This document shows, piece after piece, positions 9,529 through 40,600 of a stretch of DNA of 64,000 nucleotides (its first letter is position 1; each line of letters opens with the position of its first letter). Position numbers and translations under genes: made by a program. Origin of the DNA: Mizuhopecten yessoensis (Eukaryota); assembly GCF_002113885.1 (NCBI RefSeq), contig NW_018408610.1, positions 502,648-566,647 on the forward strand, read 5' to 3'. The notes under the pieces were generated by a model, which searched no databases, had not been told where the DNA came from, and worked only from the letters and a program-made list of their open reading frames with translations.

Positions 9529-11032
9529 CACTAGCGGAAAAAAGAAACTGTGCATGTGGAGAATTGTTATAGAACATGCATTACCAACTGTATATACATG
9601 AAAATTCACATACATGACCGAGTATGACACATACACACAATCCGTGTGTCATTGACAGTTTTTCCCGTGCAGTTTGCTCTCTATAGGCGTTGACCAGTTT
9701 GCACGTTTTTCTCGTCCAGCCATCCAATTCGAAAATGAAAGTTTGTTTTTCAACTGTTGGGTCACTCTGTTGAGACCAATGACCAGTAAAAACAGCATTA
9801 TAACGTTTTAATTTATGATTAATGCTATGCCGAAGCTCAATGAAAATGACCGCCTCTGGATTATTGGTATGCTTCAAGCTGGTATGGGCCAAGCCGTTGT
9901 CTCTACACGTTTCCATGTCCATCGAAACACAACCGGGATTTGTGGAGACGACATCAACAGTTTGGCCACGTCGGCGATCGACCTCGTGCGGGACGTCCAC
10001 GTGTGACGTCAACAGGACAACCATATTCGGCTTGTCCATTTGAAAAACCGCTTCCAAACGGCTAGTTTGACTGCACGGACAATCCCTGGGTTGCTACCAA
10101 TAAGCCCGATAACTGTACGGAACCGATTGCGTGAACGAGCTATCCGTCCGCGACATCCTACAATCCGCCTAGTTCTTCTGCCGCGTCATCGTGTAGCACG
10201 TCTGGACTGGTGCAGCAGGCATCTGCGATTTACCCGACGGGATTGGGCCGGCATTTTGTTTACGGACGAGTCGCGAGTCCACCTGGATAGAAGTGACGGC
10301 CGTTCCAGAGTGTATCGTCGCGTTGGAGAACGTTTCCGTGACGCGTGTGTGGTACAACGACGTTCCTTCGGCGGAGGCAGTGTTATGATTTGGGGCGGCA
10401 TCACAGCCAACGGGAGAACGCCTCTGGTGGTTGTTAACGGGAATTTGAACGCGCTACGTTACCGTGACGAGATCCTCCGGACCCACGTCGTTCCATTCGT
10501 GCAAGGGCAGCAACGTCACATTACGCTACAGCAGGACAACGCCAGGCCACACACAGCTCGTGTCGCTATGGAATTTCTGGCCCAGCAGAACGTTGACGTG
10601 TTGCCCTGGCCTGATGTATCCCCCGATCTGTTTCCCATTGAACACGTCTGGGATGAAATGAAGCGCAGATTATGGGCACTACCTAATCAACCGGTGACGT
10701 TGGCTGATTTGACTGCAGCGTTGGTATAGATCTGGAATGCCATCCGACAAGCATTCTTGAACCGTCTAATAGGCTCCATGCGTCGACGTTGCCAGGCTTG
10801 CATTTAGGCAAACGGTGGACATACGAGGTATTAACTTTGTAAACTCAGTATTGACCCCTGCTGTGTTTACGTCACTCCTGAGCGGAACTTATTGATTCCA
10901 TAACGTGGAAATGGAATGCAACTGTTAATAAATAACGAATAAATTGTCCCTAAAAACCTTGTTGTTCTACGTCATACACATTTATTTTTATAACACATTT
11001 TAGGCATGCACAGTTTCTTGTTTCCGCTAGTA
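9529..11032 (+). mobile_element. Tc1/mariner DNA transposon (DD34E), full length but decayed
   Basis: ~28-bp TIRs cactagcggaaaaaagaaactgtgcatg / catgcacagtttcttgtttccgctagta, with TA on both flanks (9527-28, 11033-34). Confidence 0.95.
9827..10834 (+). pseudogene. Tc1 transposase with a frameshift and in-frame stops
   Basis: N-terminus MPKLNENDRL..., then FTDESR, QQDNARPH and SPDLFPIEHVW (34 residues between the second D and the E), ending GGHTRY*. Frameshift near 9935; TAG stops at ~10727 and ~10805. Confidence 0.92.
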
Positions 11033-13541: not shown

Positions 13542-13854
13542 AGAGAAGTCATATGTTCATGACTGATATCTAGTAACATATACCAGAAGTGTCGCCTCAA
13601 GTATGCTATTTCACCAAAACCTTAGTTTCTACACAAAAGTAGAAATTCACTTTCTTATTAAAACTGCTCTTCATCGGCGACGACAAACTAAATATTTACA
13701 TGCAATAGAATCTCCGATGTTGGGCTAAAGGGATTTATATTACTCTGAACAGTATCATGATATATGTTCTCCATAAGTACGAATATTGGCCATCCGGGGT
13801 TTCAAAAATCAAAAAAATGAATTCGGAAGTTATCTTAAGTTACCATTTATTTTG

Positions 13855-15812
13855 TTTGGAAGTCATGTTCTGGTATCGTTAGCCTGTTTGGAGGTCATGT
13901 TCTAGACTGATTAGAGGTCATGTTCTAGGCTGATTGGAGGTCATGTTCTAGACTGATTGGAGGCAATGTTCTAGACTGATTGGAGGTCATGTTTTAGACT
14001 GTTTGGAGGTCATGTTCTAGACTGATTGGAGGTCATGTTCTAGACTGTTTGGAGGTCATGTTCTGTTATCGTTAGCCTGTTTGGAGGTAATGTTCTAGAC
14101 TGATTGGAGGTCATGTTCTAGACTGTTTGGAGGTCATGTTCTAGACTGATTGGAGGTAATGTTCTAGACTGATTGGAGGTCATGTTCCGGTAACATCAGA
14201 CTGTTTGGAGGTCGTGTTCTGGTAACAATAGACTGATTGGAGGTCATGTTCCGGTAACATTAGACTGTTTGGAGGTCATGTTCTGGTAATATTAGCCTGC
14301 TTGGAGGTCGTGTTCCGGTAACATTAGACTGTTTAGTGGTAATTGTCTGGTAACATCAGACTGTTTGGAGGTCGTGTTCTGGTAACATTATACTGTTTGG
14401 AGGTCATGGTCTGGTAACATCAGACTGTTTGGAGGTCGTGTTCAGGTAACATTTAACTGTTTGGAGGTCATGGTCTGGTAACATTAGACTGTTTTTAGGT
14501 CGTGTTCTGGTAACAATAGACTGTTTGGAGGTCATGTTCTGGTAACATCAGACTGTTTGGGGGTCATGTTCTGGTAGCATTAGACTGATTGGATGTCCTG
14601 TTTTGGTAACATTAGACTATTTGTAGGTCGTGTTCTGGTAACATTAGATTGATTGGAGGTCATGTTCTGGTAACATCAGACTGTTTGGGGGTCATGTTCT
14701 GGTAGCATTAGACTGATTGGATGTCCTGTTTTGATAACATTAGACTATTTGTAGGTCGTGTTCTGGTAACATTAGATTGATTGGAGGTCATGTTCTGGTA
14801 ACATCAGACTGTTTGGGGGTCATGTTCTGGTAGCATATTAGACTGATTGGATGTCCTGTTTTGGTAACATTAGACTATTTGTTGGTCGTGTTCTGGTAAC
14901 AATAGACTGATTGGAGGTCATGTTCTTGTAACATTAGACTGTTTGGAGGTCATGTTCTGGTAACATTAGACTGTTTGGAGGTCATGTTCTGGTAACATCA
15001 GACTGTTTGGAGGTCGTGTTCCGGTAACATTAGATTGATTGGAGGTCATGTTCCGGTAACGTTAGACTGTTTGGAGGTCATGTTTCGGTAACATTAGACT
15101 GTTTGGAGGTCATGTTCTGGTAACATTAGACTGTTTGGAGGTCATGTTCTGGTAACAATAGACTGATTGGAGGTCGTGTTCCGGTAACATTAGACTGTTT
15201 AGTGGTGATTGTCTGGTAACATCAGACTGTTTGGAGGTCGTGTTCTGGTAACATTAAACTGTTTGGAGGTCGTGTTCCGGTAACATTAGATCGGTTGGAG
15301 GTCATGTTCTGGTAACATCAGACTTTTTGGGGGTCATGTTCTGTAAGCATTAGACTGATTGGAGGTCATGTTTCGGTAACATTGGACTGTTTGGAGGTCA
15401 TGTTCTGGTAACATCAGACTGTTTGGAGGTCGTGTTCTGGTAACATTAGATTGATTGGAGGTCATGTTCTTATAACATTATACTGTTTGGAGGTCATGTT
15501 CCGGTATTATGACTGTTCAGAGGTCATGTTCTTGTAACATTAGACTGTTTGGAGGTCGTGTTCTGGTAACATTAGACTGTTTGAAGGTCATGGTCTGGTA
15601 ACATTAGACTGTTTGGAGGTCATGGTCTGGTAACATCAGACTGTTTGGAGGTCGTGTTCTGGTAACATTAGACTGTTTAGTGGTGATTGTCTGGTAACAT
15701 CAGACTGTTTGGAGGTCATATTCTGGTAACATCAGACTGATTGGAGGTCGTGTTCTGGTAACATCAGACTGATTGGAGGCCATGTTCTGGTAACATAAGA
15801 CTGTTTGGAGGT
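13855..15812 (+). repeat. Minisatellite array of 23-bp and ~32-bp units
   Basis: Units gactg(a/t)ttggaggtcatgttcta and gactgtttggaggtcatgttctggtaacatta, with higher-order blocks. Confidence 0.97.
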
Positions 15813-16780: not shown

Positions 16781-17109
16781 ATGTAAAGTGATGATAAATA
16801 TTTACATATACTCTTGTAATTTACATATCTGTCACCTTTAAGTTTAAAAAAACACATTCAAACCCTGACGCCATCTATCAACAACATATATATAGAAAAG
16901 GTTACATTGACTTTTTTATTTGTTAAAGTCATCTCTCTCTCCAAACAGATTATACAAATTTGGACCAATTCCTTTCATTCCTTCCCAAGATGAAGGATTT
17001 TTAAGAACTTGCGATATATTTCTGAAAAGAATGCTGTCTGTCAGACATTTTTTCCCCTTGATCTTCCTCAAAGATTGAACAGACAGACACACCTCTATTC
17101 AAAAGGCTA

Positions 17110-17772
17110 ATTATGACACACTGGCACTTTGTAGGTTTTTTTTTACAAAAATCCAAGGTATCACATGTGTATCAAACTTTTTTCGTGTCTCTACCTATCA
17201 ATAATATATCAAATGATTTTGCAACTGTGCATGTAATCCTGACTTGTCAAGATTATGTTTGGCAGCCAATTTTGTCTTGGTAAAAACAGTGAAATTCAAG
17301 AAAAGCCAAACAACAACAACGGTTTTATAGTCTAGTATGTCCTTCTGTGGAATCCGTATCTCCATCCAATCCTCGGCCAGTAGTAAGCAGTCATAGTCAG
17401 GGTCATACAAACAAACAAACACATACATGATCAATTGTTGCTGCAATTGTTGGAATCAAGAAATGTGATAATGTACTCTCATTCCTGTTAACCTGGGCAA
17501 ATCCATTAGTTATAGCTTCAGCCAAGATTTGCTCCACAACTTTTGATTCCAAAAGAACACTGTCATGTTTCTTGTTGGCTTTTACTTCAATACAAATATC
17601 ATCAGTGTTCTCTATTTCTACCTTTCTTTGTTTTCTTGCAGGTTCAACATCTGTATCTTAACTATCATCATCTTCATCCTCTTCACTGTTCTCAGTTTCT
17701 TCATTTCAAAGTGTCACAGCAATTCGTTGTTCAATATGATATCTACTCCGCCATGCCATGTTTTCTCTGATC
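17110..17772 (-). pseudogene. Paralog A exon 3: PD-(D/E)XK-like nuclease domain, disrupted
   Basis: Acceptor tcaaacag|. Reads SEKTWHGGVDIILN...DDICIEVKANKKHDSVLLESKVVEQILAEAITNGFAQVN...SHFLIPTI...CLYDPDYDCLL...VWLFLNFTVFTK...KSGLH, collinear with 42238-42896. It has frameshifts (~17725; GTTT duplication ~17410) and TGA/TAA stops. Confidence 0.88.
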
Positions 17773-18540
17773 CTGTTTGATAATATAAAAGTACAGTAAA
17801 TAAGCACTTTCGTGCTTTGAAAATGGTTGTCAATTTGAACAGTTCTATAGGAATCTAATTTAAACAAGAGATCCCAGAGGGATCTTGGCGCCCACCATTG
17901 AATTATCTTTATTGGTTCTATGCAAGACTGATCTTTTCTCTACTTTTACATTCTTTCCTCTTCATCATTTGATAACAGGGACAACCTTCTATGAAATAGT
18001 GAAAACTAGAACTGAAAGCCATATAGCTAACTAATAACCCCCACTACCCATCATAAATGACCATGGCAACCAAATGACATCTATTGTTTCGGAAAATAGC
18101 ACTATTTTACTTGCCATCTCTAAAAACCTGTACATACCAATTTTCAGCTTAATCAGACATTATCTCATTTTGGACCAATCAGAAGCCTCCATTATGTGTC
18201 CATAGTAATGGTTCTGGTCTTCAATTAATAAGTTACACCGCTTGACCAAGTTTGAAAACAAGAGGTCCAGAGTCCCTGCATCACTCACCTGGATATTTCA
18301 GTAATCATGGCAAAATACTCTCATTTTGAGTTGCCTCTCCCATAAATGGTTCAAACTAAATGTGCATTGACCAAATCCTATCATTCTTAAAGAAGAAGAA
18401 GAAGAAGGATTTTGAAGTTTTTTGCTCTATTTCCCTTATGGGCCCGGCCCTTCAGGCCCCAAGGGAGCCTATATAGCTAACCCTCACCTTATACAATCTG
18501 ATGATCGTGGACTATATATATAAATTTAAATGGTATCGAA

Positions 18541-19206
18541 CCATCCTTACCTGTGTCTCCTACACAGACTATATCTACTGAAGTGTCTCCTACACAGACT
18601 ATATCTACTGAAGTGTCTCCTACACAGACTATAGCTACTGAAGTGTCTCCTACACAGACTATATCTACTGAAGTGTCTCCTACACAGACTATATCTACTG
18701 AAGTGTCTCCTACACAGATCTTACCTACTAAAGTATCTCCTACACAAATCTTACCTACTGAAGTATCTCCTACACAGATATTACCTACTGAAGTATCTCC
18801 TACACAGATCTTCCCTACTGAAGTATCTCCTACACAGATCTTACCTACTGAAGTATCTCCTACACAAATCTTACCTACTTAAGTATCTCCTACACAAATC
18901 TTACCTACTGAAGTGTCTCCTACACAGATCTTACCTACTGAAGTATCTCCTACACAGACCCTACCTACTGAAGTGTCTCCTACACAGATCTGACCTACCG
19001 AAGTGTCTCCTACACAGATCTTACCTACTGAAGTATCTACTACACAGATCTTACCTACCGAAGTGTCTCCTACACAGATATTACCTACTGAAGTATCTCC
19101 TACCCAGATCTTACCTCCTGAAGTGTCTCCTACTCAGATCTTACCTACTGAAGGTTCTCCTACACAGACCTTACCTACTGAAGGGTCTCCTACACAGATC
19201 TTACCT
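18541..19206. repeat. 30-bp minisatellite, array 1 (about 22 units)
   Basis: Unit gaagtgtctcctacacagatcttacctact. Confidence 0.97.
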
Positions 19207-19919
19207 AGACTGTTTGGAGGTCATGTTCTAGACTGTTTGGATGTCATGTTCTAGGCTGATTGGAGGTCATGTTCTTGTAACATTAGACTGTTTGGAGGTC
19301 ATGTTCTGGTAACATTAGACTGTTTGGAGGTCATGTTCTAGACTGATTGGGGGTCTTTTTCTAGCCTTTTTGGATGTCATGTTCTAGGCTGATTGGAGGT
19401 CATGTTCTTGTAACATTAGACTGTTTGGAGGTCATGTTCTAGACTGATTGGGGGTCTTTTTCTAGCCTTTTTGGATGTCATGTTCTAGGCTGATTGGAGG
19501 TCATGTTCTAGACTGTTTGGATGTCATGTTCTAGGCTGATTGGAGGTCATGTTCTTGTAACATTAGACTGTTTGGAGGTCATGTTCTGGTAACATCAGAC
19601 TGTTTGGGGGTCATGTTCTGGTAGCATTAGACTGATTGGATGTCCTGTTTTGGTAACATTAGACTATTTGTAGGTCGTGTTCTGGTAACATTAGATTGAT
19701 TGGAGGTCATGTTCTTGTAACATTAGACTGTTTGGAGGTCATGTTCTGGTAACATTAGACTGTTTGGAGGTCATGTTCTGGTAACATCAGACTGTTTGGG
19801 GGTCATGTTCTGGTAGCATTAGACTGATTGGATGTCCTGTTTTGGTAACATTAGACTATTTGTTACCAAAACAGGACATCCAATCAGTCTAATGCTACCA
19901 GAACATGACCCCCAAACAG
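19207..19919. repeat. Second block of the 23/32-bp satellite; last ~58 bp inverted
   Basis: Same units as 13855-15812. 19862-19919 is the reverse complement of 19789-19850. Confidence 0.93.
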
Positions 19920-20370
19920 GTAGGTAAGATCTGTGTAGTAGATACTTCAGTAGGTAATATCTGTGTAGGAGATACTTCAGAAGGTAAGATCTGTGTAGGA
20001 AATACTTCAGTAGGTAAGATCTTACCTACTGAAGTGGCTCCTACACAGATCTTACCCACTGAAGTATCTCCTACACAGACCCTCCCTACTGAAGTGTCTC
20101 CTACAAAGATCTTACCTACTGAAGTTTCTCCTACACAGACCCTACCTACTGAAGTATCTCCTACACAGCCCCTACCTACTGAAGTGTCTCCTACACACAT
20201 CTTACCTACTGAAGTATTTCCTACACAGATCTTACCTTCTGAAGTATCTCCTACACAAATCTTACCTACTGAAGTGTCTCCTACACAGATCTTACCTACT
20301 GAAGTTTCTCCTACACAGACCTTACCTACTGAAGTGTCTCCTACACATATCTTACTGACCGAAGTGTTTC
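19920..20370. repeat. 30-bp minisatellite, array 2 (about 3 inverted plus 12 direct units), continuous with exon 2 of paralog A
   Basis: Orientation switches at the palindrome acttcagtaggtaAGATCTtacctactgaagt (centre 20019/20020). Confidence 0.95.
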
Positions 20371-20571
20371 CTTGGCAAATGTTCGCCATACAGTCACAGC
20401 CACATTTGTCTGGAAGTTGCTTTGCATGTTTATCAACCTCGTACTTCTTTCCTTGGATCAACTGGGAAAAGAAATGATGGGCCAATCCAACCATAATTTG
20501 TGTCTCCTTACTTCCATTTGTCGGAGCGTCTTTGGCAAGTTTCTTGATCGCCTCTTCATGTTTTCTTTGCT
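20356..20571 (-). pseudogene. Paralog A exon 2
   Basis: Acceptor ttttttcccag|. EQRKHEEAIKKLAKDAPTNGSKETQIMVGLAHHFFSQLIQGKKYEVDKHAKQLPDKCGCDCMANICQGNTSV aligns to 39577-39795. Donor GTAAGA at 20355. Confidence 0.88.
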
Positions 20572-21199
20572 CTGGGAAAAAATATCATACAGAGCAAACT
20601 GTGTAAGAGGATCAATGATTCACCGTTAAACCCCGTGTAATTTGTGCAGTTTTTTTGTACAGAAATAAATTTTAAAGTTGGGGGTGCGCAAATTACACAA
20701 GTAGCTCGACATTTCAAGTGTTTTTTTTACAGAAAAAAAAATCGTCAATTCTCAATGTCCGCCATCTTGGAAAAAGACGGAAATTCACGTTGCGAACTTA
20801 AAAGATTGATGAACATGCACTCAGCAATTTATTCTTGTTAAATGTATCAGATAATAGAATGATGCATAGGTAACATACTACATGTGTTGATATTTGAGTT
20901 AACTAGAACACTGACAGGTCAGCAAGGGCCCCGTCTTATGGTTATATACCCCCCTTAACCATCAAGAACTAGAAGCCATCTGCCCATATCGCTGAGGTTG
21001 ACGTTTGACATTTGGACTTTAAAAACAATCGCAAGGAAGCAAAATATACATTATACATGTGCTATGATGTGACTCTTGTTTTCATCCACCACCATATTTG
21101 CTGGGCTAACGGAGATGAAAATATTGGTATAAAACTCATTTATTAGCTTTGATTTGTTTTATTTAAACCTTACATACCTCTCCAACTAAGTGCCAGGGT

Positions 21200-21723: not shown

Positions 21724-22796
21724 CAGGGCTTTATCAGGGAGTTTCGGGAATCGGTACCCTAGGTTCAAATTTGGAAAAAATGATCGACATTACAGCTACT
21801 TTGGGAAATTTGGACAAACATCATTATAACAACTAATTACATGACTTTCTTGTCTACATTTATTATTATGGCACAGTCAGCTATAATTTTTTTATACTTT
21901 AATTATCGATCGCTCAACAAAGTAATCGGAAGGAATATTTCATTTTGTCAGTGATTGATACTAACTTATTTTATCGGGTGGCCAGCAGGACGACCAGATA
22001 TTGTTTTCAGGTGGTCCTTCTCAATCATAAGTGGTCCTTCCATATTGACCAAGATTAAGAAATAACAATGAAAGTTTTATATATCTTTTGTCGATGTACA
22101 TCTCCATAAAAACGAGGAAATATCTCTGAGTTTTTGCAATGAAATCAGATAGATATTAAAAAGAACATCTAATAACAATGAATTTTACAACAACAAAAAA
22201 TAAAAATGATCATTTATAAACAATAACAAACACAGATTTTTTAAGATTTACAGATGTATTATAAAATAAATCACTAAGTATTTACATTACAAAACTGTTC
22301 TACACATAATATAATTTACATAGCATAGCAAACACATACTTAACTAGACAAAACATAGAACAAAATCAAACAAACAAATTGCATTTAGGGCTGTCTTGGC
22401 TGCTGCATATATATATTACAAAATTACCAGCATGAAGGAAGATAAATTCAAGATTCCCTACCAGGTGCAAGTCCTAATCCTATGAACAGGAAAAGGCGGT
22501 CCTGGTTAAGGGAAATGAGGTAAGTATTAAAGTTTAGAGCTGGTAGACAATGAACAAATGAAGAAATTGAAATTGAATGAGCAGGTTGTGGCCAGGCGAG
22601 GTCCTGAGTCCTCTTGGAGAACCAGGCGAAAGTCCTGTACCACAAAGACTGCTATCATACATAGTTTGGTTACATCGCCAGGCGAGTCCTGAGCCCTACT
22701 GAAGAACCAGGCGGAAAATGGTCCTGTACGATGTAAACTGTGTATGACATGTATATGAAATGAATGAAACCCCAATGACTTTGGGGCTAATGGACC

Positions 22797-23225
22797 NNNN
22801 NNNNNNNNNNNNNNNNNNNNNNNNNNNNNNNNNNNNNNNNNNNNNNNNNNNNNNNNNNNNNNNNNNNNNNNNNNNNNNNNNNNNNNNNNNNNNNNNNNNN
22901 NNNNNNNNNNNNNNNNNNNNNNNNNNNNNNNNNNNNNNNNNNNNNNNNNNNNNNNNNNNNNNNNNNNNNNNNNNNNNNNNNNNNNNNNNNNNNNNNNNNN
23001 NNNNNNNNNNNNNNNNNNNNNNNNNNNNNNNNNNNNNNNNNNNNNNNNNNNNNNNNNNNNNNNNNNNNNNNNNNNNNNNNNNNNNNNNNNNNNNNNNNNN
23101 NNNNNNNNNNNNNNNNNNNNNNNNNNNNNNNNNNNNNNNNNNNNNNNNNNNNNNNNNNNNNNNNNNNNNNNNNNNNNNNNNNNNNNNNNNNNNNNNNNNN
23201 NNNNNNNNNNNNNNNNNNNNNNNNN
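22797..23225. other. Assembly gap (N run) with duplicated flanks
   Basis: About 390 bp left of the gap (22408-22796) recurs almost identically right of it (23226-23613). Confidence 0.95.
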
Positions 23226-24077
23226 ATATATATTACAAAATTACCAGCATGAAGGAAGATAAATTCAAGATTCCCTACCAGGTGCAAGTCCTAATCCTAT
23301 GAACAGGAAAAGGCGGTCCTGGTTAAGGGAAATGAGGTAAGTATTAAAGTTTAGAGCTGGTAGACAATGAACAAATGAAGAAATTGAAATTGAATGAGCA
23401 GGTTGTGGCCAGGCGAGGTCCTGAGTCCTCTTGGAGAACCAGGCGAAAGTCCTGTACCACAAAGACTGCTATCATACATAGTTTGGTTACATCGCCAGGC
23501 GAGTCCTGAGCCCTACTGAAGAACCAGGCGGAAAATGGTCCTGTACGATGTAAACTGTGTATGACATGTATATGAAATGAATGAAACCCCAATGACTTTG
23601 GGGCTATTGGACCGAATTGATTATGCGCAGCATGAGAAAGCCCCAAATTGTATTAAACAAGTTATTCTTTTTTATATAACTGATTAACTAATTATATCAA
23701 ATAATGTTTGTGAATTTTTTTTCAGCTTGATGTAGGTTGTTACTGTGATATAACATTTGTTGAATGGTTAGATTTTGAGTGAAAAATGACTTTCAAGACC
23801 AACATGATGATGAATCTATAAATAGCAAATGGGACCATGCCACCAATACCATATCAAATCAAGAAGTAACTTATTTATAATTCCTTCAAGTGTTATGGGA
23901 GTTTTAAATCAAATAAACGATTGTCATTTCCATGTGTTATGTATACTGTATGCCTTCTAAAACTTGACACAAGCAGTGTGTTCCATTTAGCGGAACGTTC
24001 CGGTTGTGCCAACTTGGAACGGCTCCGCTAAATGGTACAGTACGTTCCAATCACGTTCCCCGCACGCTAGATCCAAC

Positions 24078-27000
24078 ATGGCGGATATCAGCACGATTGC
24101 TACAGCGTCTTATTCTTTTTTATCATTTTTTGATGATGAGGACGACGATATGTTAGAAACCGCAGCTGCTGTGTTTTGTATGACGCGATACCGAGTTCGC
24201 GTTCCGCTGTATGTTGAAAATGTTGTTACAAATTATGATGAAATTGAGTTCCGTTCTCAATTTAGAATGACACGGAGGTCGTTCAATTTATTAACAAACC
24301 TGATTTATGCCACTGATAAAGTTTCTACATATCATGATCAAGGTCGCGAACCTATTCAGCTAGAGAAACAGGTTTTGGTGACAGTTTGGTACCTGGCAAA
24401 CAAGGACTCACATCGGGAAATAGCCGATCGGTTTAATATAACAGTAAGCAGCGTCGCTAGGACGAAATCCCGTGTGATCGACGCTATCATGGCTTTGATG
24501 AAAGAATTCATCGTTTGGCCAACTGGTAATAACCGCACATTGTTCTTTAACAATTAATTACTTCATTTGGGGTTATAACATTTTGTTTAAGGTCCCTTCC
24601 ACTATGGACTTGACAATTTCATAAACATTCGGATAAATTCAGTTTAAAATCTACTTACATTCCAGTATCTTCCCGAATTCATAAGCAAGTTTGAAACTTA
24701 CAAGCCCTTGTGTTCACATAGCCTAGCTAGCAACGTGTAAGATATATACAATGGTGAACGAACGACGATTCTTTAAAATACTATATTCAGTACTTACTTC
24801 ATATGAGACGCATGTAACACTTGCAAACTACATTAAATCGCGTTTAAATCCCAATGACGAATTGCCACAATATTTCTGTCAACTTAAAACATGGCGCCGT
24901 TGAAAGTTCACACGAGCGACAACTCTTGCTGTTAGGTGCATTCGTTTGGCACATAAATACTAAACCTATTCGTTACAAATGTCTGAAATACACATATGCT
25001 TTACTGTGTTAACCTTTGTTACATAAACGTACCGTATTCTTCCTATTTCAATTAATTTCTTTCCTAATAGCATATCCTTCATATATATTTTACGTAAATT
25101 AGTCCACTAAGAATAACATTACCATCGTATATCAAGGAGCAAGACTACAACTGATACAGGAGCAGTTTCAGGCCGTCAATGGGTTCCCAGGAGTTGTTAG
25201 GGCTATAGACGGTACTCACATTCCAATTGCGGCTCCAAGTGACCACAAGTCCTCCTACCTAAACAGGAAAAAATACCATTCCTTGGTGCTCCAAGTAAGA
25301 GAAAAAAGTTTAAAATAATACAATTCCGAAGATTTACTACTTATCATGAGTTTTGACAGCGATAAGTAACATTTTATTTTATAGAAAGTATACAAAAGTA
25401 TAAATATCTACCTATCCGCGTTGTTTGTACCTTGAGGATAACGGATGTGCTCTATGTACTTTTTTAATAAGGCTTGTGCAATAATAAGTGAAATAAAGAC
25501 ACACCTTTTTGTTGAATGTAAATTCAGGCAGTGGCTGATCATTAAATGGGATTCACCGATGTATACGTTGGATGGCCAGGGTCTGTACATGATGCCAGGA
25601 TTTACACCAACAGTAGTGTCTGCCTTAAAGCATCGGAGCTTTTCCCGACACAGAGCCACTTGATTGGAGACGGGGCATATCCTCTTTCGAAGTATGTGTT
25701 TAATTAATGTTTTACACACTACTTGATTTGATAGAGCAGCTCTATTATTTCTTTCTATTTATTACTATTGACAACTAAACTTTTAGTGCCCTGTTAAATT
25801 AATAAGTTTCAATGTTACACTCAAGGGCAGAATGCATGTAAGAAATGCAAACACAGCGGACATTTTTGCTAACGATTACTAATCAATAAAAACATATTTC
25901 CGCCTCATCAAACGTAAGATTTGCCATAATTGCTGTGTGCTGTTCAGGTTTTGGCATTTAAAACATAGAGTGCAATATTCTTTGATTAATACTTGTGTTA
26001 ACGACACCGGATATTGCCTCCAAACAGGCGGTGATCACACGAGATGCAGTTGAAAGTGAGTTTTTCTTCTATATTTTCCTTAATTCAGGGGCTGTCATGT
26101 GCTCGAGGATTTTAGGATCAATACCTCACATTTTCAGCGTTTATATTATCCATAGAAAACGTCCATTAATGGGCCAATATGTCTTCCAGACTTACACACA
26201 CGTCGTGTGGTATCGGCGGAAACTTGCGAGCGATAACCATCACGTGTCTGAATTAATGTATTGTCTACAGCTAAATAAAGATGTATCTACATTACACACA
26301 TTCATTATGTCAGTGAAAGCATTGTATTATATGAAATATCGTCAAAAATATTTCGTCGAACTGTACGGCAACTTGAATGTTTGTTTTTAGATTACTGTAC
26401 GGCATCATGCAAATTGCAAGTCGCCGTACAATGCTATGCAATTATGTCAGCATATTTCTCATAATTTACGAGTTCGAAAATATGATAAATGTATACATTT
26501 TAATTAGTTTTAGGTAATGAAATTTGTTAAAAAACACACACCACTACAATACTAATTCAGACACGTGGTAAGTATCATTCGTGAGTTTTCGCCGATACCA
26601 GGCGGCGTGTTTGCAAGTCTAGAAGAAATATTGACCCATATAGGAACGTTCTCTGTGGTTTAAGCCATTGCTGAAAATGTGAGGAATTGATACAAAAAAG
26701 CCAAAGACCATACAAACCTCTGAAGTAAGGAAATTATAGGAAAAAAATCACCTGCAACAGAAGCCCACTTCGTGTGATCACCGCCTGCTTTGTACCAATA
26801 TCCGGTGTTGTTAACACAGTGATTATATGATGTGTTGTTTTTTGTATATGCGATGCTGCTAATTGTACTTACACCATTTCCCCTGCAAGCATCATACCTG
26901 GCAGGCACTGCCATATCTGTCAAGCATTCTATATCTGCCAACAGTGCGCCATACCCATACTTTCGGCTCAACACATTATAATTCCCCACTTATTTGATAC

Positions 27001-27401
27001 AGGGTGGGTATGGTAAAATTCTTACCTGTCTACTTAAAAATGAAAAAAATATATATTTCAGGACAATGATGACACCATATAGGGACAATGGCCATCTGTC
27101 ACCCAAGCAGCGAAACTACAATAGGAAGCATGCATCGACACGTGTCGTAGTGGAGAGGGCCTTTGGTCTTCTCAAAATAAAATGGCGACGTCTCCATCAT
27201 CTTGAGATGATAAATGTTGATAGCATGTGTAGGGTAATTTGTGCAAGCTGTGTCTTGCACAATTTCGTTTTAGCGGAGGACGGTCCAGATATGCTTCCAG
27301 AACCTGAGGTTGAGGAAGACGGAGATGATGAAACCCAGGCTGACAACATGAACACTACTGGTGTTCATAAGAGAGATTATATAGCTGATTTGCTGTTGTA
27401 A
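24078..27401 (+). pseudogene. Harbinger (HARBI1-like, DDE_Tnp_4-type) transposase, four exons (24078-24525, 25137-25294, 25528-25691, 27062-27401), one premature stop
   Basis: Phase-consistent GT-AG splicing. Motifs FRSQFRMTR, GFPGVVRAIDGTHI, YLNRKKYHSLVLQ, GWPGSVHDARI, LIGDGAYPL, RVVVERAFGLLK, CVLHNF. In-frame TAA at 25543-25545. Confidence 0.92.
25988..26825. mobile_element. Foldback MITE in transposase intron 3
   Basis: Long inverted arms: gtgttaacgacaccggatattg...ggcggtgatcacacgag versus 26768-26818, and 26159-26263 versus 26547-26650. Confidence 0.8.
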
Positions 27402-27452
27402 AAAAAAACTTTAATCACATTCTGGAGAAAGCATTTATTTCATCGATATAAG

Positions 27453-30295
27453 TTACTGTTCATTATTTCCTGGTACCATTCTTGAGAATATGTTTAAGAA
27501 TTTATTCATCACCTCCATTTTCTCCTCATGCTGCTTCTTCTTTTCCTCTCTCATTCCGCTCAAAAGCTCATACATGTTTTCTCTCTTTCTCTTCACTCCC
27601 TTACTTCCATTAGGCTTTTCACTCAAACTGTTACTATTTTCACACACACTATTCTCACCGACACATTCATCATTCATAGAACTGTAGGTGGCCATGGGAG
27701 TAATATTGGGATTACCCCCAATGGCCTCCTCCATTTCCCGTTCATATAAAAACTCTCTTCTTCCACTTCCACTCTTGCCATTCACTCTCTTGACATCCTT
27801 AAACTTTCTCTCAAGCTTTGCCCACTTTCCCTTTAGTTGACTCCAGTCAACGCTGGACTTGCACGTTTCAGAAAACTTATTGGCAATAATTTGCCAGACC
27901 TTTTTTTTGGTCAAGTTTGACCTGTCAAACATGGCTTGGTGGTCCTGCCTTAAGCTAATCAGAAGTCTTGTTGATTCGACTGTCCAGTTGAATTTGTCTG
28001 GGAAAAAAAGATGTTCAATACAAAGACATGTCATACATTACAGTTATATACTATAGCTTTGAGGTGAACCGTATGTTTTTAGAAATATTTTTTTTATCAC
28101 AAAATGACATTTGAATTTGTTCTATATGTAAAGATGTGGTATCTCAGCTTTAAGAAACAAATGTTATTAAAAAAAGTAAATTCGCTAAAAAAGAAGCCCA
28201 AAAGAATATCATTTACATGTCAGAGGCATTAGTAAGAAAAAATAAGTCAAATTATCTCCCTTTGATAAATTTGATATTAATTTGTAAGATGTGTAGATTC
28301 AACTTTTGTTCCATTTGCAAATAAAAGCAAAAGTTTTTAACAATACAGTAATGACATACATATGTGAGCTTGCATAAATTATAACAATATAAATATTTCT
28401 GACAGTCAATATCCATGAGCCAAGAAAACAGTAACGTAAAAATAACTGTAATACGACTGGGCCTGGAGTTAATGTCTGTGTTGGATGTTGTACACACCAA
28501 TGCAACAAAACTAATACACTTTTAAAAATTGGACAGAGCTTTGTATAACAATTTTATTAATTTAAAGGCAATAATCTCCCATTTTGATGGTGTGAAATTT
28601 AAATTTTTGGATAGCGTTTTAGGTAGGTATGAGCGTACTATTGGCAGAGGACAGGCCCCGAGTTTGACCTACATATATCATGTATTTTAGTTTTCATAAC
28701 CTCATATTTTATACAACTGTAAATCTGTATTTGAACTTAAAGGTACCCTTTACCTTAAATGGAGACATTAAAATGTGTTTCAATATATTCATTTAATACC
28801 AATAAACATAATTTTACCATCTGCTTCTGTACTTGCTTCATCTATTCCTAAAATAAAAATATGCTAGTAACATTCACAAATAATACATCAAATCATTTAT
28901 ATTACTATTTGAATAATTATAACAAATTGTGAAGTCATACCAGTGATAATCATGTATTGTCAACCAGTGATAATCATGTTTTGTCATTAATTATATAATT
29001 ATAAGCAGTGGTAGATGTTTAAATCATACAATCAAATTATTGATTAAATGATGTGTTTGAATAGAAATTGAAATCTGAATTGACCCTATTTAAAACAAAA
29101 GTTTTTAAAGAAAATGGTGGATTCCATCTTGGTCAATGTACCAATATTGAAATATAGATGTTCAATCCAGCATACTGTATATATTATATATTATACCATA
29201 TATGAAACTTTACCACTTACCTGTAACTTTATGGAGAGACTGGCTTCCTGTTGCCTCCTTTTCAGCACTGTTTGTGTCTGTGTCACCTTAATTACATAAT
29301 GTAATACTGGTTCATTAAGTTGACATTGATAAGATATTAGTTATATTAATTACTTCATCTTATATGTTTCACTGAGAAAATTACATGTAAAACGAAATAT
29401 AAAAAGTCCTTTTTCAAGCATGAATATATTCAATTCAACTGATATCAAATCAAATAAATATGGCAGGGATCTGGATTAGACTGGGGCCAATTTAGAAAGG
29501 TTATACTGTAATTATAGCATATTGTGAAATCATATAAGTGATAAGTTTCATGTTTTGTCATTAATTATATAATTATAAGCAGTGGTAGATGTTTAAATCA
29601 TACAATCAAATTATTGATTAAATGATGTATTTGAATAGAAATTGAAATCTGAATTGACCCTATTTAAAACAAGAGATTTTAAAGAAAATGGTGGATTCCA
29701 TATTGGTCAATGTACCAAACTACCAATATTGATGTTCAATCTAGCATACTGTATATATTATACCATATATAAAACTTTACCACTTACCTGTAGCTTTATG
29801 GACAGACTGGCTTCCTGTTGCCTCCTTTTCAGCATTGTTTGTGCCTGTGTCACCTTAATTACATACTGGTTCATTAACTTGACATTGATAATATTTCAGT
29901 CAATTATGTATGATATTCACCGTAAGAATATCTAGTATCAATTTGATGAGAAATATGCAGGTTAAATATTTTTGGAATTATTTTAACCTTGTATAAAACT
30001 ATTAAAACATTCATGGTTGACATTTTAAAGCCAAAATCTTCCAGGAGAACATGGAACCTTATAAACCAAACATGTTTTTGTACAGTTGTTTTGCCTGGCA
30101 CTTTTTGAAAATCAGTTCAGAATAGAAATCAGAACTCGAACAACTTAATAATGGACATACACAGATTAAAAATAAAATTTCAATAACGATTGAAAGAATT
30201 ACCTTCCACTTCCAACAGATATGGCCCAACCAGTATGGAGCTCAGGTCTTCTTTATGGGCCAACATTTGATAGGCCATATTTGGTAAGATGGGAT
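27453..30295 (-). CDS. Harbinger Myb/SANT-like (trihelix) DNA-binding protein; exons 30203-30295, 29788-29853, 29221-29286, 28818-28847, 27453-27997; probable first exon from the ATG at 31028
   Basis: Last exon FNWTVESTRLLISLR...KKVWQIIA...QLKGKWAKLERKFK plus a C-terminal coiled coil. Upstream exons are all phase 1-1 with canonical GT-AG. Linkage of the first exon is unresolved. Confidence 0.8.
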
Positions 30296-31597
30296 CTGCA
30301 GGTTCAATTAATTTGGAAACAAATTCATTGAATTATTATAAACCATGTACTATGCAGGGCTGGACAATAAGGGTAGCCTGCTGGCCTACGACTAGTGAAA
30401 CCTCCATCTCGACTACAGTACAGTAGTGGTTATAAAAACTACTAGACCATATAAATATATTGTCTAGTCAAAATTTGATATCAATTAACATGTTGAATAA
30501 TATTTGGTTCATTAATTTACACATGGAGTCATGACTAGTAAAATTGAAATCTACTTGCCAGACTGACTAGTGTTTTTTATTCATACTACACGCAACTATA
30601 TATGTAATTTGTTTCTTCACATGAACATTGATATACACTTTCTGATCAATTTTAGTCATTCATTAATCAAAATAGTCATTTTAACAAGTATTTTTCAGTT
30701 TAAATGTGATGAATATTATGTCGTCAAGCTACCATTTCCATGGGTTTTTTCATTTCATTTTTTTTAAATAAAATTTCAATTGAGTTCATGAGCAAATAAA
30801 AGAGGTAGACTGTTAAAATGTTCCATCTTTGGTAGGCGATTATAACCCCACACTACAAATATCTATATTACACTGATTCAGTCGAAAAAACTGCAAAAAC
30901 AATTAAGATTCTCGCAGTTGAAGTATGTAAATTATATGGAACCGCTGAAATAGTGTTTAACATATTATACATACATATATATCGCATTTGCTTGACATTG
31001 GAATTGGAAATCTTTCATTGACGGCCATATTGGATCCAACTTGGTACCCTCAAATGAAACGTTCTCGACGAACCGGTTCGTTTCGGCGGAACGTCGCGCA
31101 TTCCATTTAACGGAACGGATGGTACGTACCGGAACACCCGGAACGTTCCGCTAAATGGAACACGCTGAAGGATGTCTGTCATTAGCGTAGAAGCCTATGA
31201 AGCAAACTAGGGGAATTTCTGCTTTGTTAAGTCTCGATCACCCAGATAATTGCATTGACAGGGACGCTTAATATCAGTATCTCAAGCGTCTAACTGACTG
31301 AAATCCAAGTCAATCTTCTCAAAATGAATATGAAAGATGTTTTGGTAGCCTCCGGCCTCGGGACCACCGCTAGTTAAGTGTCGATCGCTGTTTGTACATT
31401 ATTTTTTTTAAATATCTGAATTGGGAATTTTAAAGTAGGAAATTGGGAAAAATCACACATATTTTTCATTTGGAATTGGATCCGTTTACCTGACCTAAAG
31501 AGATCGGTGATAAAGCCCTGCCTAGGTACCTTGACCTTTGGTCAGTTGACTCCTTGTTTAATTAGAAAGATAAAGGTAACAAAGGTAGAATAACTTT

Positions 31598-31912
31598 CAT
31601 ACAGAAATTCAAACAACGCCAAGAATGACTGATTAGAGGTAGGGTGTTTCTCAATCGCATCTACTCCATCCTTCAGTAATTCTTTGATAACATCTAAGGC
31701 TAAAATGTCCTTTGTGTAAACACATCCGCACTCTGGGCTGCGCATTAATTCATAGAAAAGTTTAAGACCGCTGAATAATCTTCCCGATTTAGCATTACTA
31801 CATTCAATAACTAAGTTGAGGAATGCAGGCAATATGCCATTATAATCACGGATAATATTCCTGAAAACACTTTGAACTACTTCTTCTTCTTCAGATGTAC
31901 AGAAGCCTTTAG
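31598..31912 (-). pseudogene. Paralog A exon 1
   Basis: EEEEVVQSVFRNII...PAFLNLVIECSNAKSG...PECGCVYTKDILALDVIKELLKDGVDAIEKHPTSNQSFLALFEFL aligns to 34700-35051. No clear ATG, and the donor is degenerate. Confidence 0.8.
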
Positions 31913-31954
31913 GTCAACCTGTTTGTAATAAGAAGCTACTAATTACAGCTCTGT

Positions 31955-37600: not shown

Positions 37601-40600
37601 TATTTCAACAACAAAAATAAATACTGTAGGACTCAGGTGACCATTAAGGCCTATGGGCCTCTTGTTGTATGTCAACATATATTACATTAAAGGCACACAA
37701 GTCTGAGGACCCAAGCTGCGAAAGGTAAGAAAGGTGGCGCTGCAGTTGCCAACTTAATTAGTCTATTTAAGGAATAAACACTGTTTCAATGTGTATTCCA
37801 TGCCAATACATTTATTTACGCTAAAAAAAAAAAAAAGTATCGTGGGTGGCCATGCAACACCTATTTTCAAAAATCTTCTTCTCAAGACCCAGATATGGTA
37901 GAATCAAATATTCTTCATAGATGGAATGTTCTTAAATATAAGGTGCTTTACCAAAATTGTGAATTTCATGACCCTGGGGTCTCACTTTTCCCTCAGAGGA
38001 GGGGGTAAAATTTGCTATAGTTTATATAAGAGAAATTACCTTTTTGAGCATCATTTGTTGAATTGTCATCAGAAATAATCAAAATTTGGTTAGATTTATT
38101 AGTATGGGATGGCAGTTTGATGGTATGCACATATTGGCCCTGACTAACCCCAAGGGGAAGATGAGCCCGGCGAGGCCAAAAGGGGTCAAATTGACTGAAA
38201 TATATTAGAACTCATGATCAGGTGACCGTTAAGGCCCCTCATGGGCATCTTTTATGAATGCAAATTGTTTTGCCATGGGCCTATGTGAACATTTCAGAGA
38301 ATAAACGTGAACTTGTATTAACCATATTCTGTTAATGAGGGGTGGAATTAAAAAGAGTGGAAGCGCACTGGTCCAACACATCGATCATGCAAGTGCTGCA
38401 TGAAGGCCCCTCGATCCGCTAGCAATAGCTATGGCTCAGTTTAGGGTGGTCCGGGGTATTTTCAAATCTAAAAGCTAGCTCTGCACACGGTGCAATCTGG
38501 TACATTTTGTGCTTAAAATAAAACTTTTCAAATCAGCTGAAAGTTAAGATAATTTAACAAAATTATAAGATAACGTCCGATTCCTGTATTTATACAATTG
38601 GGTTAAAAAACCCACTGGTCTACCTGAAAAACTATGGTCTCGGACGATTGGCTAATTCCACCCCTGTAACTAATAAGCTGAGCATTAGTAAGCAGTATTT
38701 GTTTGCATGGTTTGTCTCCCTGGTAACACAATATATTGTTGTTCAACCCATTTTATCCTGAATTCTTCTACAGTACAGTCGTAGTTCCCCATTGCATCCG
38801 TTATAGGACCTGGGTTATAGTTTAAGGTAATAGGATTGTGTCGTTATTTCTCAGTAGAATTTCTTCAAATTTTGTAATTATATTGCTTCGAAGTAAAGAA
38901 AAATTTCTGCCACAAAAAAAATATAGGTTGTCATAATTTTAAGGAATTTAAATTGGAAATTTATGTAAAAAGGGGTGACTTTTGAAAAAAAAATGAAAGA
39001 CACAATTTGTTGCAAAATAATGTCAGTAAAAATGATACTACCATAGATTAGTATTACATTAATGTATATCAATTTGCTAAATGCTGAAATTATGTCAAAT
39101 AAATGATCTTTAAAGGATAAAAAATTGACATTTTATGATAAAACCATATGCACATAGTTATTGTGGGTAAGAGTTATCTTTCTTGAAAAACTTTACAGTA
39201 GTGAAATAGGTAGCGGGTTTCCTGAAGTACAGAAAAATGGATACATGTGGCTCATTGATTAAAAAATACCTGAATTAATGCCTGCATTGCTTTGAAATAC
39301 TTTAATATTGAAAGAAAACACTGTTCTGTCAATAATAAACATACAACATTCATCAGTTTAATATTAAACATTCGAATATGCGGAAATTGTGATATGTACT
39401 GTCTCCCTACATTGGATTTTCAACTAGGGATGTACTTCCTACTTCCATTTATCAATACACTCCTATGACCTTTAAGACTTTTTTGGATACATCTCGTAGA
39501 AAAACAAGTAAAAGGTATCTAAGATATAACATGTATTTGATACAGAAAAATCATTACTTTTTTTTCTGTTTTCTAGAGCAAAAAAAACATGGAAAGGCAC
39601 TTCAAAAAGTTTTTCAAATGACTCCCTCAGCAAATGGAAGTAAAGAGACACAGGTTATGGCTGTGTTGGCTCATCACCTGTTTTCCCAGTTGGTGCCAGG
39701 CAAGAAGTATGAGGTAGATGAATTCGCAAAGCAAGTCCCAAAAGAATGCGGCTGTGGTTGTAAGGCTGATGTTTGTGGAGGAAATACTGCAGTAGGTAAG
39801 ATCAGTTATGTTTTTAGGTCATCTGACCCGAAGGGTCACCGGATGACCTCTAGCAATCCTGTTTTGTCTGCCGTTGTCCGTAAAATTTTCACATTTCAGA
39901 CCTTTCTTAAGGGATTCAGCTCAAACTTCTATGAAATGATCCTAAGATGGTCCTGGCCAAGTGTTGTTATATTTCGGGTCGGTCGAAGATCAAAGATGGC
40001 CGCCATCTTGGAAAAAAAACTATTTTGAACTTCTTCTCAATTTCCACCAGGGGGATTCGGGTCAAACTTGTCTGAAACATTCTTGAAAGTGTTGTTATTA
40101 GTCCCTCACTGGATTTTGATCAAACTTGATCGAGTTTCAGGGTTGTTGGGTCAAGGTAAAGGTCAAGGTCACCATAACTATTTTTTTAGAAAATCCTTGT
40201 CAGCACTCTTGCAGCTTCATTCCTTGAGGGATTTTGATCTGGGACAAATTCGAATTTCAGGGTTGTTCAAGGTCAAGGTCCACGTTACTTTTTAGGTCAT
40301 CTGACCCGAAGGGCTGACCCCGGCATTGTCCACCGTGCGTAAACTTTTCACATTTCAAACTTCTCCTCAAGTTCCACATATATAGGATTTAGCTCAAACT
40401 TACCTGAAATGATCCTGAGATGGTCCTGACCAAGTGTTGTTATTTTTCGGGTCAGTGCGAAATCCAAGATGGCCACCATCTTGAAAAACACATTTTAAAA
40501 TTCTTCTCCAATTTCACTGGTGCCATTGAGTTGGAAATTGGTGAGGATGTTAAGGAAAGGAAGCTGACAGAGTGTTGTTATTTTCTGGCCTGGTTAAAAC

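What the first reader, a model, noticed from the sequence alone, without database searches (positions are those of the whole stretch)
20021..20370. Minisatellite built from an exon-intron junction: a ladder of in-frame 5' splice sites
Seen: on the gene strand the 30-bp unit is TGTGTAGGAGACACTTCAGTAG|GTAAGATC. It corresponds to the single junction TGTGGAGGAAATACTGCAGTAG|GTAAGATC in paralog B. Twelve units follow at exact 30-nt spacing (20355 down to 20025), 11 keep the GT, all are in the same phase, and none contains a stop. Each donor choice would add one Cys-bearing GKICVGDTSV unit next to the Cys cluster. The first donor gives Arg where B has Gly; the repeats restore Gly. Inference: a way of creating length-graded isoforms, or the lesion that killed the gene. 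It also records the birth of a satellite from a splice site.
Basis: partly seen in the sequence, partly recalled or inferred. Interest (0 to 1): 0.7.

Follow-up and report, generated by a model that had tools for sequence, protein, structure and literature searches.

The report
Splice-donor minisatellite in scallop pseudogene
In a broken scallop gene the end of an exon with its splice signal is copied about 36 times into the next intron, but the assembled RNA is cut four bases before the first copy and skips them all, so this is likely a neutral example of a repeat type already known from human and lancelet genes, not a ladder of protein forms.

Summary
The array is real: 12 units of 30 bp (20377-20018, minus strand), 11 with GT, no stop. 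Two other animals' DNA carries its start. Its unit is the exon 2/intron 2 junction of a scallop gene family. It stands once in 12 sister junctions and as an array only here. The ladder idea fails. RNA-like contigs join exon 2 to acceptor 17772 at TCG|GTCAGT (20359), 4 nt upstream of the first ladder donor and out of frame. This is seen directly in one run and inferred in two more. The gene is a transcribed pseudogene: frameshifts, stops, a lost exon-1 donor, and a 7.2-kb Harbinger element that supplies the upstream exon. Even a ladder product would stop 19 codons into exon 3. The type is known: human F7, CBS, 6-16 and lancelet 'mirages'. This scan noted it before on other DNA, twice in this genome. 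One oddity remains: the repeat resembles sister genes more than the host's own junction.

The parts
20348..20377 (-). Unit 1: the host gene's own exon 2/intron 2 junction, ancestral donor position 20355 (TCA|GTAAGA), 8 of 30 bases off the repeat consensus
20354..20362 (-). Donor actually used in RNA contigs, TCG|GTCAGT (intron starts at 20359), 4 nt upstream of the ancestral donor and out of frame
   Evidence: (X13 seen directly; X11 and X12 inferred from contig ends)
20018..20347 (-). Array 1: 11 further 30-bp junction copies, 10 with GT, in phase, no stop
19920..20021 (+). 3.4 inverted 30-bp units after a fold-back centred at 20019/20020; two of them match array-1 units 5-6 at 59 of 60 bases
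19861..19919 (+). 59-bp perfect inverted copy of the 32-bp satellite (partner arm 19792-19850)
19206..19851 (-). 32-bp/23-bp satellite array, unrelated to the junction; also at 13853-15812 and on contigs C207 and C4198
18553..19205 (-). Array 2: 21 whole 30-bp junction copies plus partial ends; 15 of 21 keep GT; in-frame stops at 19136 and 18881
20356..20571 (-). Exon 2 of pseudogene A (216 nt ancestral, 212 nt as spliced), with the CxCxC cluster
16944..17772 (-). Last exon of pseudogene A from acceptor 17772: -1 frameshift near 17729, stops in the ancestral frame at 17708 and 17660, +4 near 17420, stops at 17200 (not in X12, X13) and 17197; covered by RNA contigs without gaps
31594..31917 (-). 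First large coding exon of pseudogene A: 13-codon deletion against orthologs; ancestral GT donor lost
23974..31167 (.). PIF/Harbinger-type DNA transposon in the upstream intron (37-bp inverted ends, AAG duplication, DDE_Tnp_4 and Myb/SANT ORFs). It holds the exon ending at 24798 (GAA|GTAAGT) that is spliced to exon 2 in run X13
39774..39803 (+). Single-copy junction of paralog B (exon 39577-39795, next exon from 42238)

Best explanation
The 30-bp array is a tandem amplification of a gene family's exon 2/intron 2 junction inside the intron of a transcribed pseudogene, and the RNA contigs splice it out from a donor 4 nt upstream of the first copy, so it is likely neutral. Shown: the unit is the junction; there are about 36 copies in three blocks; the gene is broken; the splice used is 20360|17772. 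Inferred, birth: one junction was duplicated by slippage or unequal crossing-over, likely between the exon's AAGAT (Lys-Ile codons) and the donor's own AAGAT 30 nt downstream. That would set the period at 30 and explain why all donors are in phase without any selection. Inferred, growth: turnover homogenised the inner units and left unit 1 out, and template switches added the inversions and the 32-bp satellite. Inferred, donor choice: three base changes in unit 1 weakened the ancestral donor (5 of 9 U1 matches) and built a better one 4 nt upstream (6 of 9). The most upstream usable donor wins over the stronger copies downstream (6-8 of 9), as shown experimentally for human F7.
For: Unit equals the family junction: 12 of 14 family hits carry it once, 1-6 mismatches; one hit is the host gene and one has no match. 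Array only here. In run X13 one 507-nt contig covers 17507-17773 and 20359-20571, which gives a GT-AG intron 20359-17773. X12 has a contig of the same length with the same end. X11's contigs break at 20359 and carry 28 loose letters plus base 17773, as that junction predicts. Depth at 17720-17779 is fully accounted for by the listed contigs in X11, X12 and X13, so only one upstream partner is seen. No loose end is listed at donors 1-5. Lesions; no gaps in the RNA contigs over them. Best-matching proteins of two other scallops are whole, keep the invariant Gly and have no insert. No silent-change bias; stops in array 2. AAGAT at 30-nt spacing in 2 of 12 sister junctions, among them the one nearest the unit. 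Precedent: PMC1557585 (abstract and passages), PMC3087553 (passages), PMC3902484 (one passage).
Against: All RNA evidence is assembled contigs, which drop rare forms, and the runs are only guessed to be RNA. X11 has a minor contig reading through into units 1-4 (20264-20386, depth 5.2 against 26.5 spliced) and contigs over units 2-5. It also covers upstream intron, so unspliced RNA is the simpler reading, but rare ladder use is not excluded. Donors 6-12 and array 2 were tested only from the acceptor side. Loose-end and piece tables were cut (42 and 35 loose-end rows hidden). The 5-nt seed is weak: other spacings give runs of 5-6 too, and the host has AACAT. Unit 1 is an outlier (8 differences; Poisson P = 0.002 if all units were the same age), with 5 changes on unit 1 against 1 on the repeat by family polarity (P = 0.11), which fits self-origin only with edge exclusion. 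The U1 count is a crude score against a recalled consensus. The scaffold has a gap with a duplicated 388-bp flank nearby, so unit number and inversions may be misassembled.
Confidence: 0.82

Rival explanations
1. Isoform ladder: the in-phase donors are used alternately and give proteins with graded numbers of Cys-bearing 10-residue units.
For: In phase, stop-free in array 1, repeats restore the invariant Gly. Repeat donors score higher than the ancestral one. Human 6-16 and CBS use two downstream pseudo-sites (PMC1557585 passage). X11 has read-through contigs.
Against: The junction seen is out of frame and upstream of the ladder. Exon 3 stops 19 codons after any ladder junction, and the frameshift is in the RNA of three runs. 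The upstream exon brings an in-frame stop just before exon 2. No silent-change bias; stops in array 2.
Confidence: 0.03
2. The array killed the gene, by disturbing splicing of intron 2 or during the rearrangement that made it.
For: It is the only one of 13 family junctions examined with an array, and it sits in a dead copy. Orthologs in two other scallops are whole.
Against: The intron is spliced out efficiently. Such arrays are tolerated in working genes. The shift to donor 20359 follows from point changes in unit 1. Two other family copies also carry stops without any array (L040, L041). Six or more other lesions exist.
Confidence: 0.07
3. Same neutral fate, other origin: the unit was imported from a sister gene with a consensus-like junction (such as L011), by ectopic template switching into the host's donor, rather than copied from the host's own junction. 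This rivals only the origin step of the best explanation.
For: Repeat consensus is 1 base from L011 and 2 from the family consensus, but 8 from the host's unit 1. Three of the host-specific changes are silent third-position changes, as if old. L011 has the AAGAT seed and the host does not. The locus shows template-switch-like inversions and a captured second satellite.
Against: With 12 sisters at a median of 4 mismatches, one at 1 mismatch is expected by chance (my estimate). Edge units are known to escape homogenisation (PMC3087553 passage). No sister-intron sequence was found beside the array start; the matches to the unique intron begin about 100 bases in and recur at several loci, like dispersed repeats. 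Polarity 5:1 is not significant (P = 0.11).
Confidence: 0.25
4. Assembly artefact: a short-read gap filler produced the array or its inverted and second blocks.
For: Fold-backs sit on a palindromic AGATCT and on a perfect 59-bp inverted repeat. There is a gap with duplicated flanks 2.4 kb away.
Against: Units carry private variants. Independent DNA contigs of X1 and X3 run from exon 2 into units 2-4, and a unit contig is 12 times the flank depth. RNA run X11 also holds unit variants.
Confidence: 0.05

Closest known systems
Human F7 intron 7 37-bp VNTR (Borensztajn et al. 2006, PMC1557585; seen: abstract, outline, passages of introduction and discussion)
   Same: First unit spans the exon/intron boundary, so the donor is reiterated into the intron; the downstream copies look functional, yet only the most upstream site is used.
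   Different: F7 is a working gene and uses its authentic donor. Here the host is a pseudogene and uses a cryptic donor 4 nt upstream of the ancestral one. The unit is mostly exonic (22 of 30 nt), in phase, and broken up by inversions and a second satellite.
Human 6-16 (IFI6), CBS intron 13, lamin B2 and PDGF intron 4 minisatellites (seen only as cited in a passage of PMC1557585; Turri et al. 1995 was not held)
   Same: Arrays of 10-25 reiterated donors; only the authentic donor or the first two pseudo-sites are used.
   Different: 6-16 and CBS do use two downstream copies; no downstream copy was seen in use here.
Lancelet 'mirage' minisatellites: Adh3, troponin C, globins BflGb6/BflGb9, PGBD5 (PMC3087553 and PMC3902484; seen: passages)
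   Same: Invertebrate tandem copies of exon/intron boundaries that do not disturb splicing; concerted evolution inside, boundary units left out.
   Different: Scallop, pseudogene host; the repeat matches sister genes better than its own first unit; composite with inversions.
Minisatellite birth from 5-10-bp flanking direct repeats (Haber and Louis 1998; seen only as summarised in passages of PMC3389668)
   Same: A 5-bp AAGAT repeat at exactly the unit spacing exists in 2 of 12 sister junctions.
   Different: The seed is at the short limit, is imperfect in the host, and is not statistically exceptional.

Membership tests
Exon/intron-boundary minisatellite ('mirage', F7/CBS/6-16 type) | Tandem array whose first unit spans an exon/intron boundary | tested here: met
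   Unit 1 spans the family's conserved donor position 20356/20355; RNA ends exon 2 inside unit 1
Exon/intron-boundary minisatellite ('mirage', F7/CBS/6-16 type) | Splice signal reiterated in the following units | tested here: met
   GT in 11 of 12 units of array 1 and 15 of 21 of array 2
Exon/intron-boundary minisatellite ('mirage', F7/CBS/6-16 type) | Locus-specific: unit derived from the gene, not a dispersed satellite | tested here: met
   33 genome matches: 26 here, 7 single sister junctions, control 0; only the best candidates are scored in a large genome
Exon/intron-boundary minisatellite ('mirage', F7/CBS/6-16 type) | Most upstream donor used, downstream copies silent or minor | tested here: met
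   Junction 20360|17772 seen in X13, inferred in X11 and X12; X14 did not reach the junction; contigs only, rare forms invisible
Exon/intron-boundary minisatellite ('mirage', F7/CBS/6-16 type) | Length polymorphism between individuals | tested here: inconclusive
   Summed contig depth over the units differs several-fold between X1 and X3, but the tool says it is no copy number
Functional tandem-donor isoform ladder | Several in-phase donors used | tested here: not met
   One out-of-phase donor seen; no loose end listed at donors 1-5
Functional tandem-donor isoform ladder | Open frame after the junction | tested here: not met
   Stop 19 codons into exon 3 in the ancestral frame, 9 residues in as spliced
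Transcribed (unprocessed) pseudogene | Several disabling lesions against whole orthologs, introns kept | tested here: met
   orthologs P0015 and P0018 whole
Transcribed (unprocessed) pseudogene | Spliced RNA carrying the lesions | tested here: met
   Contigs match exon 3 with 0 gaps in 4 of 4 RNA-like runs laid, X14 over 191 nt only; RNA status is the tool's guess, backed by two GT-AG joins in X13
PD-(D/E)XK nuclease fold (the host family's protein) | Restriction-endonuclease-like core | tested here: inconclusive
   Model of P0002, mean pLDDT 66: DrdV Z 6.2 (rmsd 3.1, 124 aligned), BpuSI Z 5.6 (rmsd 4.2, 142 aligned), all under 8; no Pfam or Foldseek hit

The most novel reading that the evidence does not exclude
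A 'mirage' that jumped between paralogs: a splice-junction minisatellite seeded in one family member (L011-like, with the AAGAT seed) was pasted by template switching onto the homologous donor of another. In this mollusc a weak, out-of-frame upstream donor then beats some 25 equal or stronger donors downstream, a natural test that first-come 5' splice-site choice holds outside mammals.
Probability: 0.2. Interest if true: 0.4.

Novelty: new member of a known kind. Interest (0 to 1): 0.2.

Why it matters
Little on its own: it is one more exon-boundary minisatellite, in a dead gene. It has two modest uses. The source of the unit can be read from 12 single-copy sister junctions, so it is a clean record of minisatellite birth. 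And the RNA picks a weaker upstream donor over many stronger downstream copies, which agrees with the upstream-first rule shown for human F7 and would extend it to molluscs if raw reads confirm it.

Tried and rejected
Dispersed satellite that landed on the junction by chance: rejected. The one other array hit, L006, has a shorter unit of about 27 bp and 72% identity and no 30-mer within 11 mismatches of the unit. Other family members with the same amplification: none in the 13 other loci (about 3 kb each) or in 80 kb around three of them; the family list is a lower bound. Proteins carrying the repeat: none among 7 candidates of 101-322 aa or 117 of 323-2000 aa, which is weak evidence. No run was on record as RNA: no RNA holder listed; runs X11-X16 are guesses. 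The whole intron was never laid in one piece, because the tool turns away long repeats, so the junction was read from two sides. Pfam gave nothing at threshold for five exon translations or three whole homologs. Foldseek against PDB gave no match at E <= 0.001. Turri et al. 1995 was not held. The search scallop + minisatellite + pseudogene + splice gave 2 unrelated papers (listing only). With I saw no paper on this locus, within an open-access library only. No supplements were read. PMC10078293 (passages) did not bear on the case.

Full report
Observation. On the minus strand, 20377-20018 holds 12 units of 30 bp with donors at 20355, 20325 ... 20025. Eleven keep GT, and the exon-2 frame runs through without a stop. 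The consensus differs from paralog B's junction (39774-39803) at 4 of 30 bases. After unit 12 the strand folds back on the AGATCT palindrome of the donor (centre 20019/20020, arm 16). Then come 3.4 inverted units, a 59-bp inverted piece of a 32-bp satellite, a 32/23-bp array (19851-19206) and a second junction array of 21 whole units (19196-18567). In array 2, 15 of 21 units keep GT and two carry in-frame stops. In all there are 36 whole units, unit 1 included.

Is it real? DNA contigs from two other samples cross from exon 2 into the array: X3 over 20276-20928 with 2 differences, X1 over 20318-20928 with 1. A 59-nt unit contig in X1 has depth 92 against 7.5 for the flank. The start of the array is therefore not an assembly product. 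The far end and the inversions were not tested. The scaffold has a gap with a duplicated 388-bp flank at 22409-23613, so copy number and inversions remain uncertain.

Where the unit comes from. A search with B's exon 2 found 14 places in the genome. Twelve carry the junction once, 1-6 bases from the repeat consensus; one is the host, and one has no match. A 21-nt pattern gave 33 matches, 26 here and 7 at single sister junctions, with 0 for the control. So the satellite is made from this family's junction and is amplified only here. The family is unnamed. B is identical to a protein labelled Mizuhopecten yessoensis, and of the 22 hits 20 are from named scallops and 2 are unnamed. A model of a homolog shows a weak restriction-endonuclease-like fold (Z 6.2, rmsd 3.1, 124 aligned to DrdV), which is inconclusive.

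Why 30 bp and in phase. In 2 of 12 sister junctions the exon's Lys-Ile codons (AAGAT) lie exactly 30 nt before the donor's AAGAT. That fits duplication between short direct repeats (model summarised in PMC3389668, passages) and would give in-phase donors with no selection. The seed is weak evidence, since runs of 5-6 occur at other spacings and the host has AACAT. Variants among array-1 units are 4 silent and 9 missense, against 23 silent of 90 possible (P = 0.43). There is no sign of selection on the peptide.

The host gene is dead. Against whole best-matching proteins of Pecten maximus and Argopecten irradians (P0018, P0015; 75-77% identical over exon 2), gene A has these lesions:
- a 13-codon deletion in the first large exon and loss of its GT donor;
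- Arg for the invariant Gly at the junction;
- a -1 frameshift near 17729 and stops at 17708 and 17660;
- a +4 insertion near 17420 and stops at 17200 and 17197.
A 7.2-kb Harbinger-type transposon (23974-31167; 37-bp inverted ends, AAG duplication, DDE_Tnp_4 and Myb/SANT ORFs) lies in the upstream intron.

What the RNA does. Four RNA-like runs were laid on the acceptor side and two of them on the donor side. All four cover exon 3 without gaps (X14 over 191 nt only), so the -1 frameshift is shared by other animals. The +4 insertion is spanned in X12 and X13, which lack only the stop at 17200.
- X13: one 507-nt contig lies on 17507-17773 and on 20359-20571, and its last 29 letters match 24798-24826 inside the transposon, before a GTAAGT donor. 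The join is CACTTCG|GATCAG, a GT-AG intron from 20359 to 17773.
- X11: the exon-2 contig ends at 20359 and the exon-3 contig carries 28 loose letters plus base 17773, as a branch at this donor predicts. The other branch reads on into units 1-4 at depth 5.2 against 26.5. X11 also covers upstream intron, so this is likely unspliced RNA.
The depth next to the acceptor is fully explained by the listed contigs in these three runs, and no loose end is listed at donors 1-5. As spliced, the frame ends 9 residues into exon 3. Through any ladder donor it would end after 19 codons. Limits: these are contigs, which drop rare forms; RNA status is the tool's guess; the tables were cut.

Mechanism. Base changes in unit 1 lowered the ancestral donor to 5 of 9 matches to a recalled U1 consensus and raised the -4 site to 6 of 9. 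The repeat donors score 6-8 of 9 but were not seen in use. This is the pattern shown for the human F7 intron-7 VNTR, where functional downstream pseudo-sites do not compete with the most upstream site (PMC1557585, abstract and passages). The same paper cites 6-16 and CBS (two further copies used) and lamin B2 and PDGF (authentic site only). Lancelet 'mirages' likewise do not disturb splicing, and their boundary units escape homogenisation (PMC3087553 and PMC3902484, passages). That the same scanning operates in a scallop is inference.

The open oddity. Unit 1 differs from the repeat consensus at 8 of 30 bases, the other 35 units at a mean of 2.3 (Poisson P = 0.002). At 5 of the 8 positions the repeat has the family state and unit 1 the derived one; at 1 it is the reverse (P = 0.11). 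Sister L011 is 1 base from the consensus. Either unit 1 was left out of turnover, or the unit came from a sister gene. I favour the first, about 3 to 1, but lack ortholog DNA to decide.

Verdict. The array is real and junction-derived, a new member of a known kind. The isoform ladder is not supported, and killing of the gene by the array is not needed. Earlier notes of this scan report the same kind of array on other DNA (65 findings hold the search words, 8 shown; two such notes in this genome). They are unchecked; I used them only for the lead to the 'mirage' papers, which I read in passages. Interest 0.2.

Noticed in passing
window 23974-31167: PIF/Harbinger-type element with 37-bp inverted ends and AAG duplication in intron 1 of the pseudogene. 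A 601-bp internal stretch has other copies, the best at 93-100% identity. It donates a spliced exon (ends 24798, antisense to the transposase) to the pseudogene's RNA.
   Followed up: partly
window 13853-15812 and 19206-19919; G000:C207:123671-125499; G000:C4198:50379-52846: The 32-bp satellite occurs in arrays on three contigs, all three of which also carry this gene family within about 16 kb; the arrays on C207 and C4198 and the one inside this intron contain inverted blocks.
   Followed up: partly
window 22409-23613: 388-bp duplication at 99.7% identity on both sides of an N gap (22797-23225): likely a scaffolding artefact.
   Followed up: no
window 31917-17100 (minus) and 34640-42896 (plus): Paralogs A and B lie head to head. 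The database model of B (P0001) starts in a 93-bp repeat ORF at about 32650-32990 and omits the conserved start of exon 34640-35050, so its N-terminus is probably mis-annotated.
   Followed up: no
P0001-P0022: Scallop family of about 420 aa with no Pfam match in the three members scanned; CxCxC, TWHGRVD and AITNGFAQ motifs; weak restriction-endonuclease-like fold (best Z 6.7 and 6.2). Copies at L040 and L041 also carry stops.
   Followed up: partly
window 10007-10729 (+): Tc1/mariner-type transposase frame (DDE_3, E 6e-17).
   Followed up: no
window 59308-61194 (-) and 44-2075: 628-aa open frame of 10-residue Thr/Ser/Pro/Gly-rich repeats (30-bp unit, 45 copies), mucin-like; and a 15-bp array of about 129 copies at the window start.
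   Followed up: no
window 25987-26825: MITE-like inverted repeat (56-nt and 195-nt arms) nested inside the Harbinger element between its transposase pieces.
   Followed up: no
L006 1445-1795 (G000:C2307): Unrelated-looking array with a unit of about 27 bp that shares the ACTTCAGTAGGTA core with the 30-bp unit (72% identity); origin not examined.
   Followed up: no
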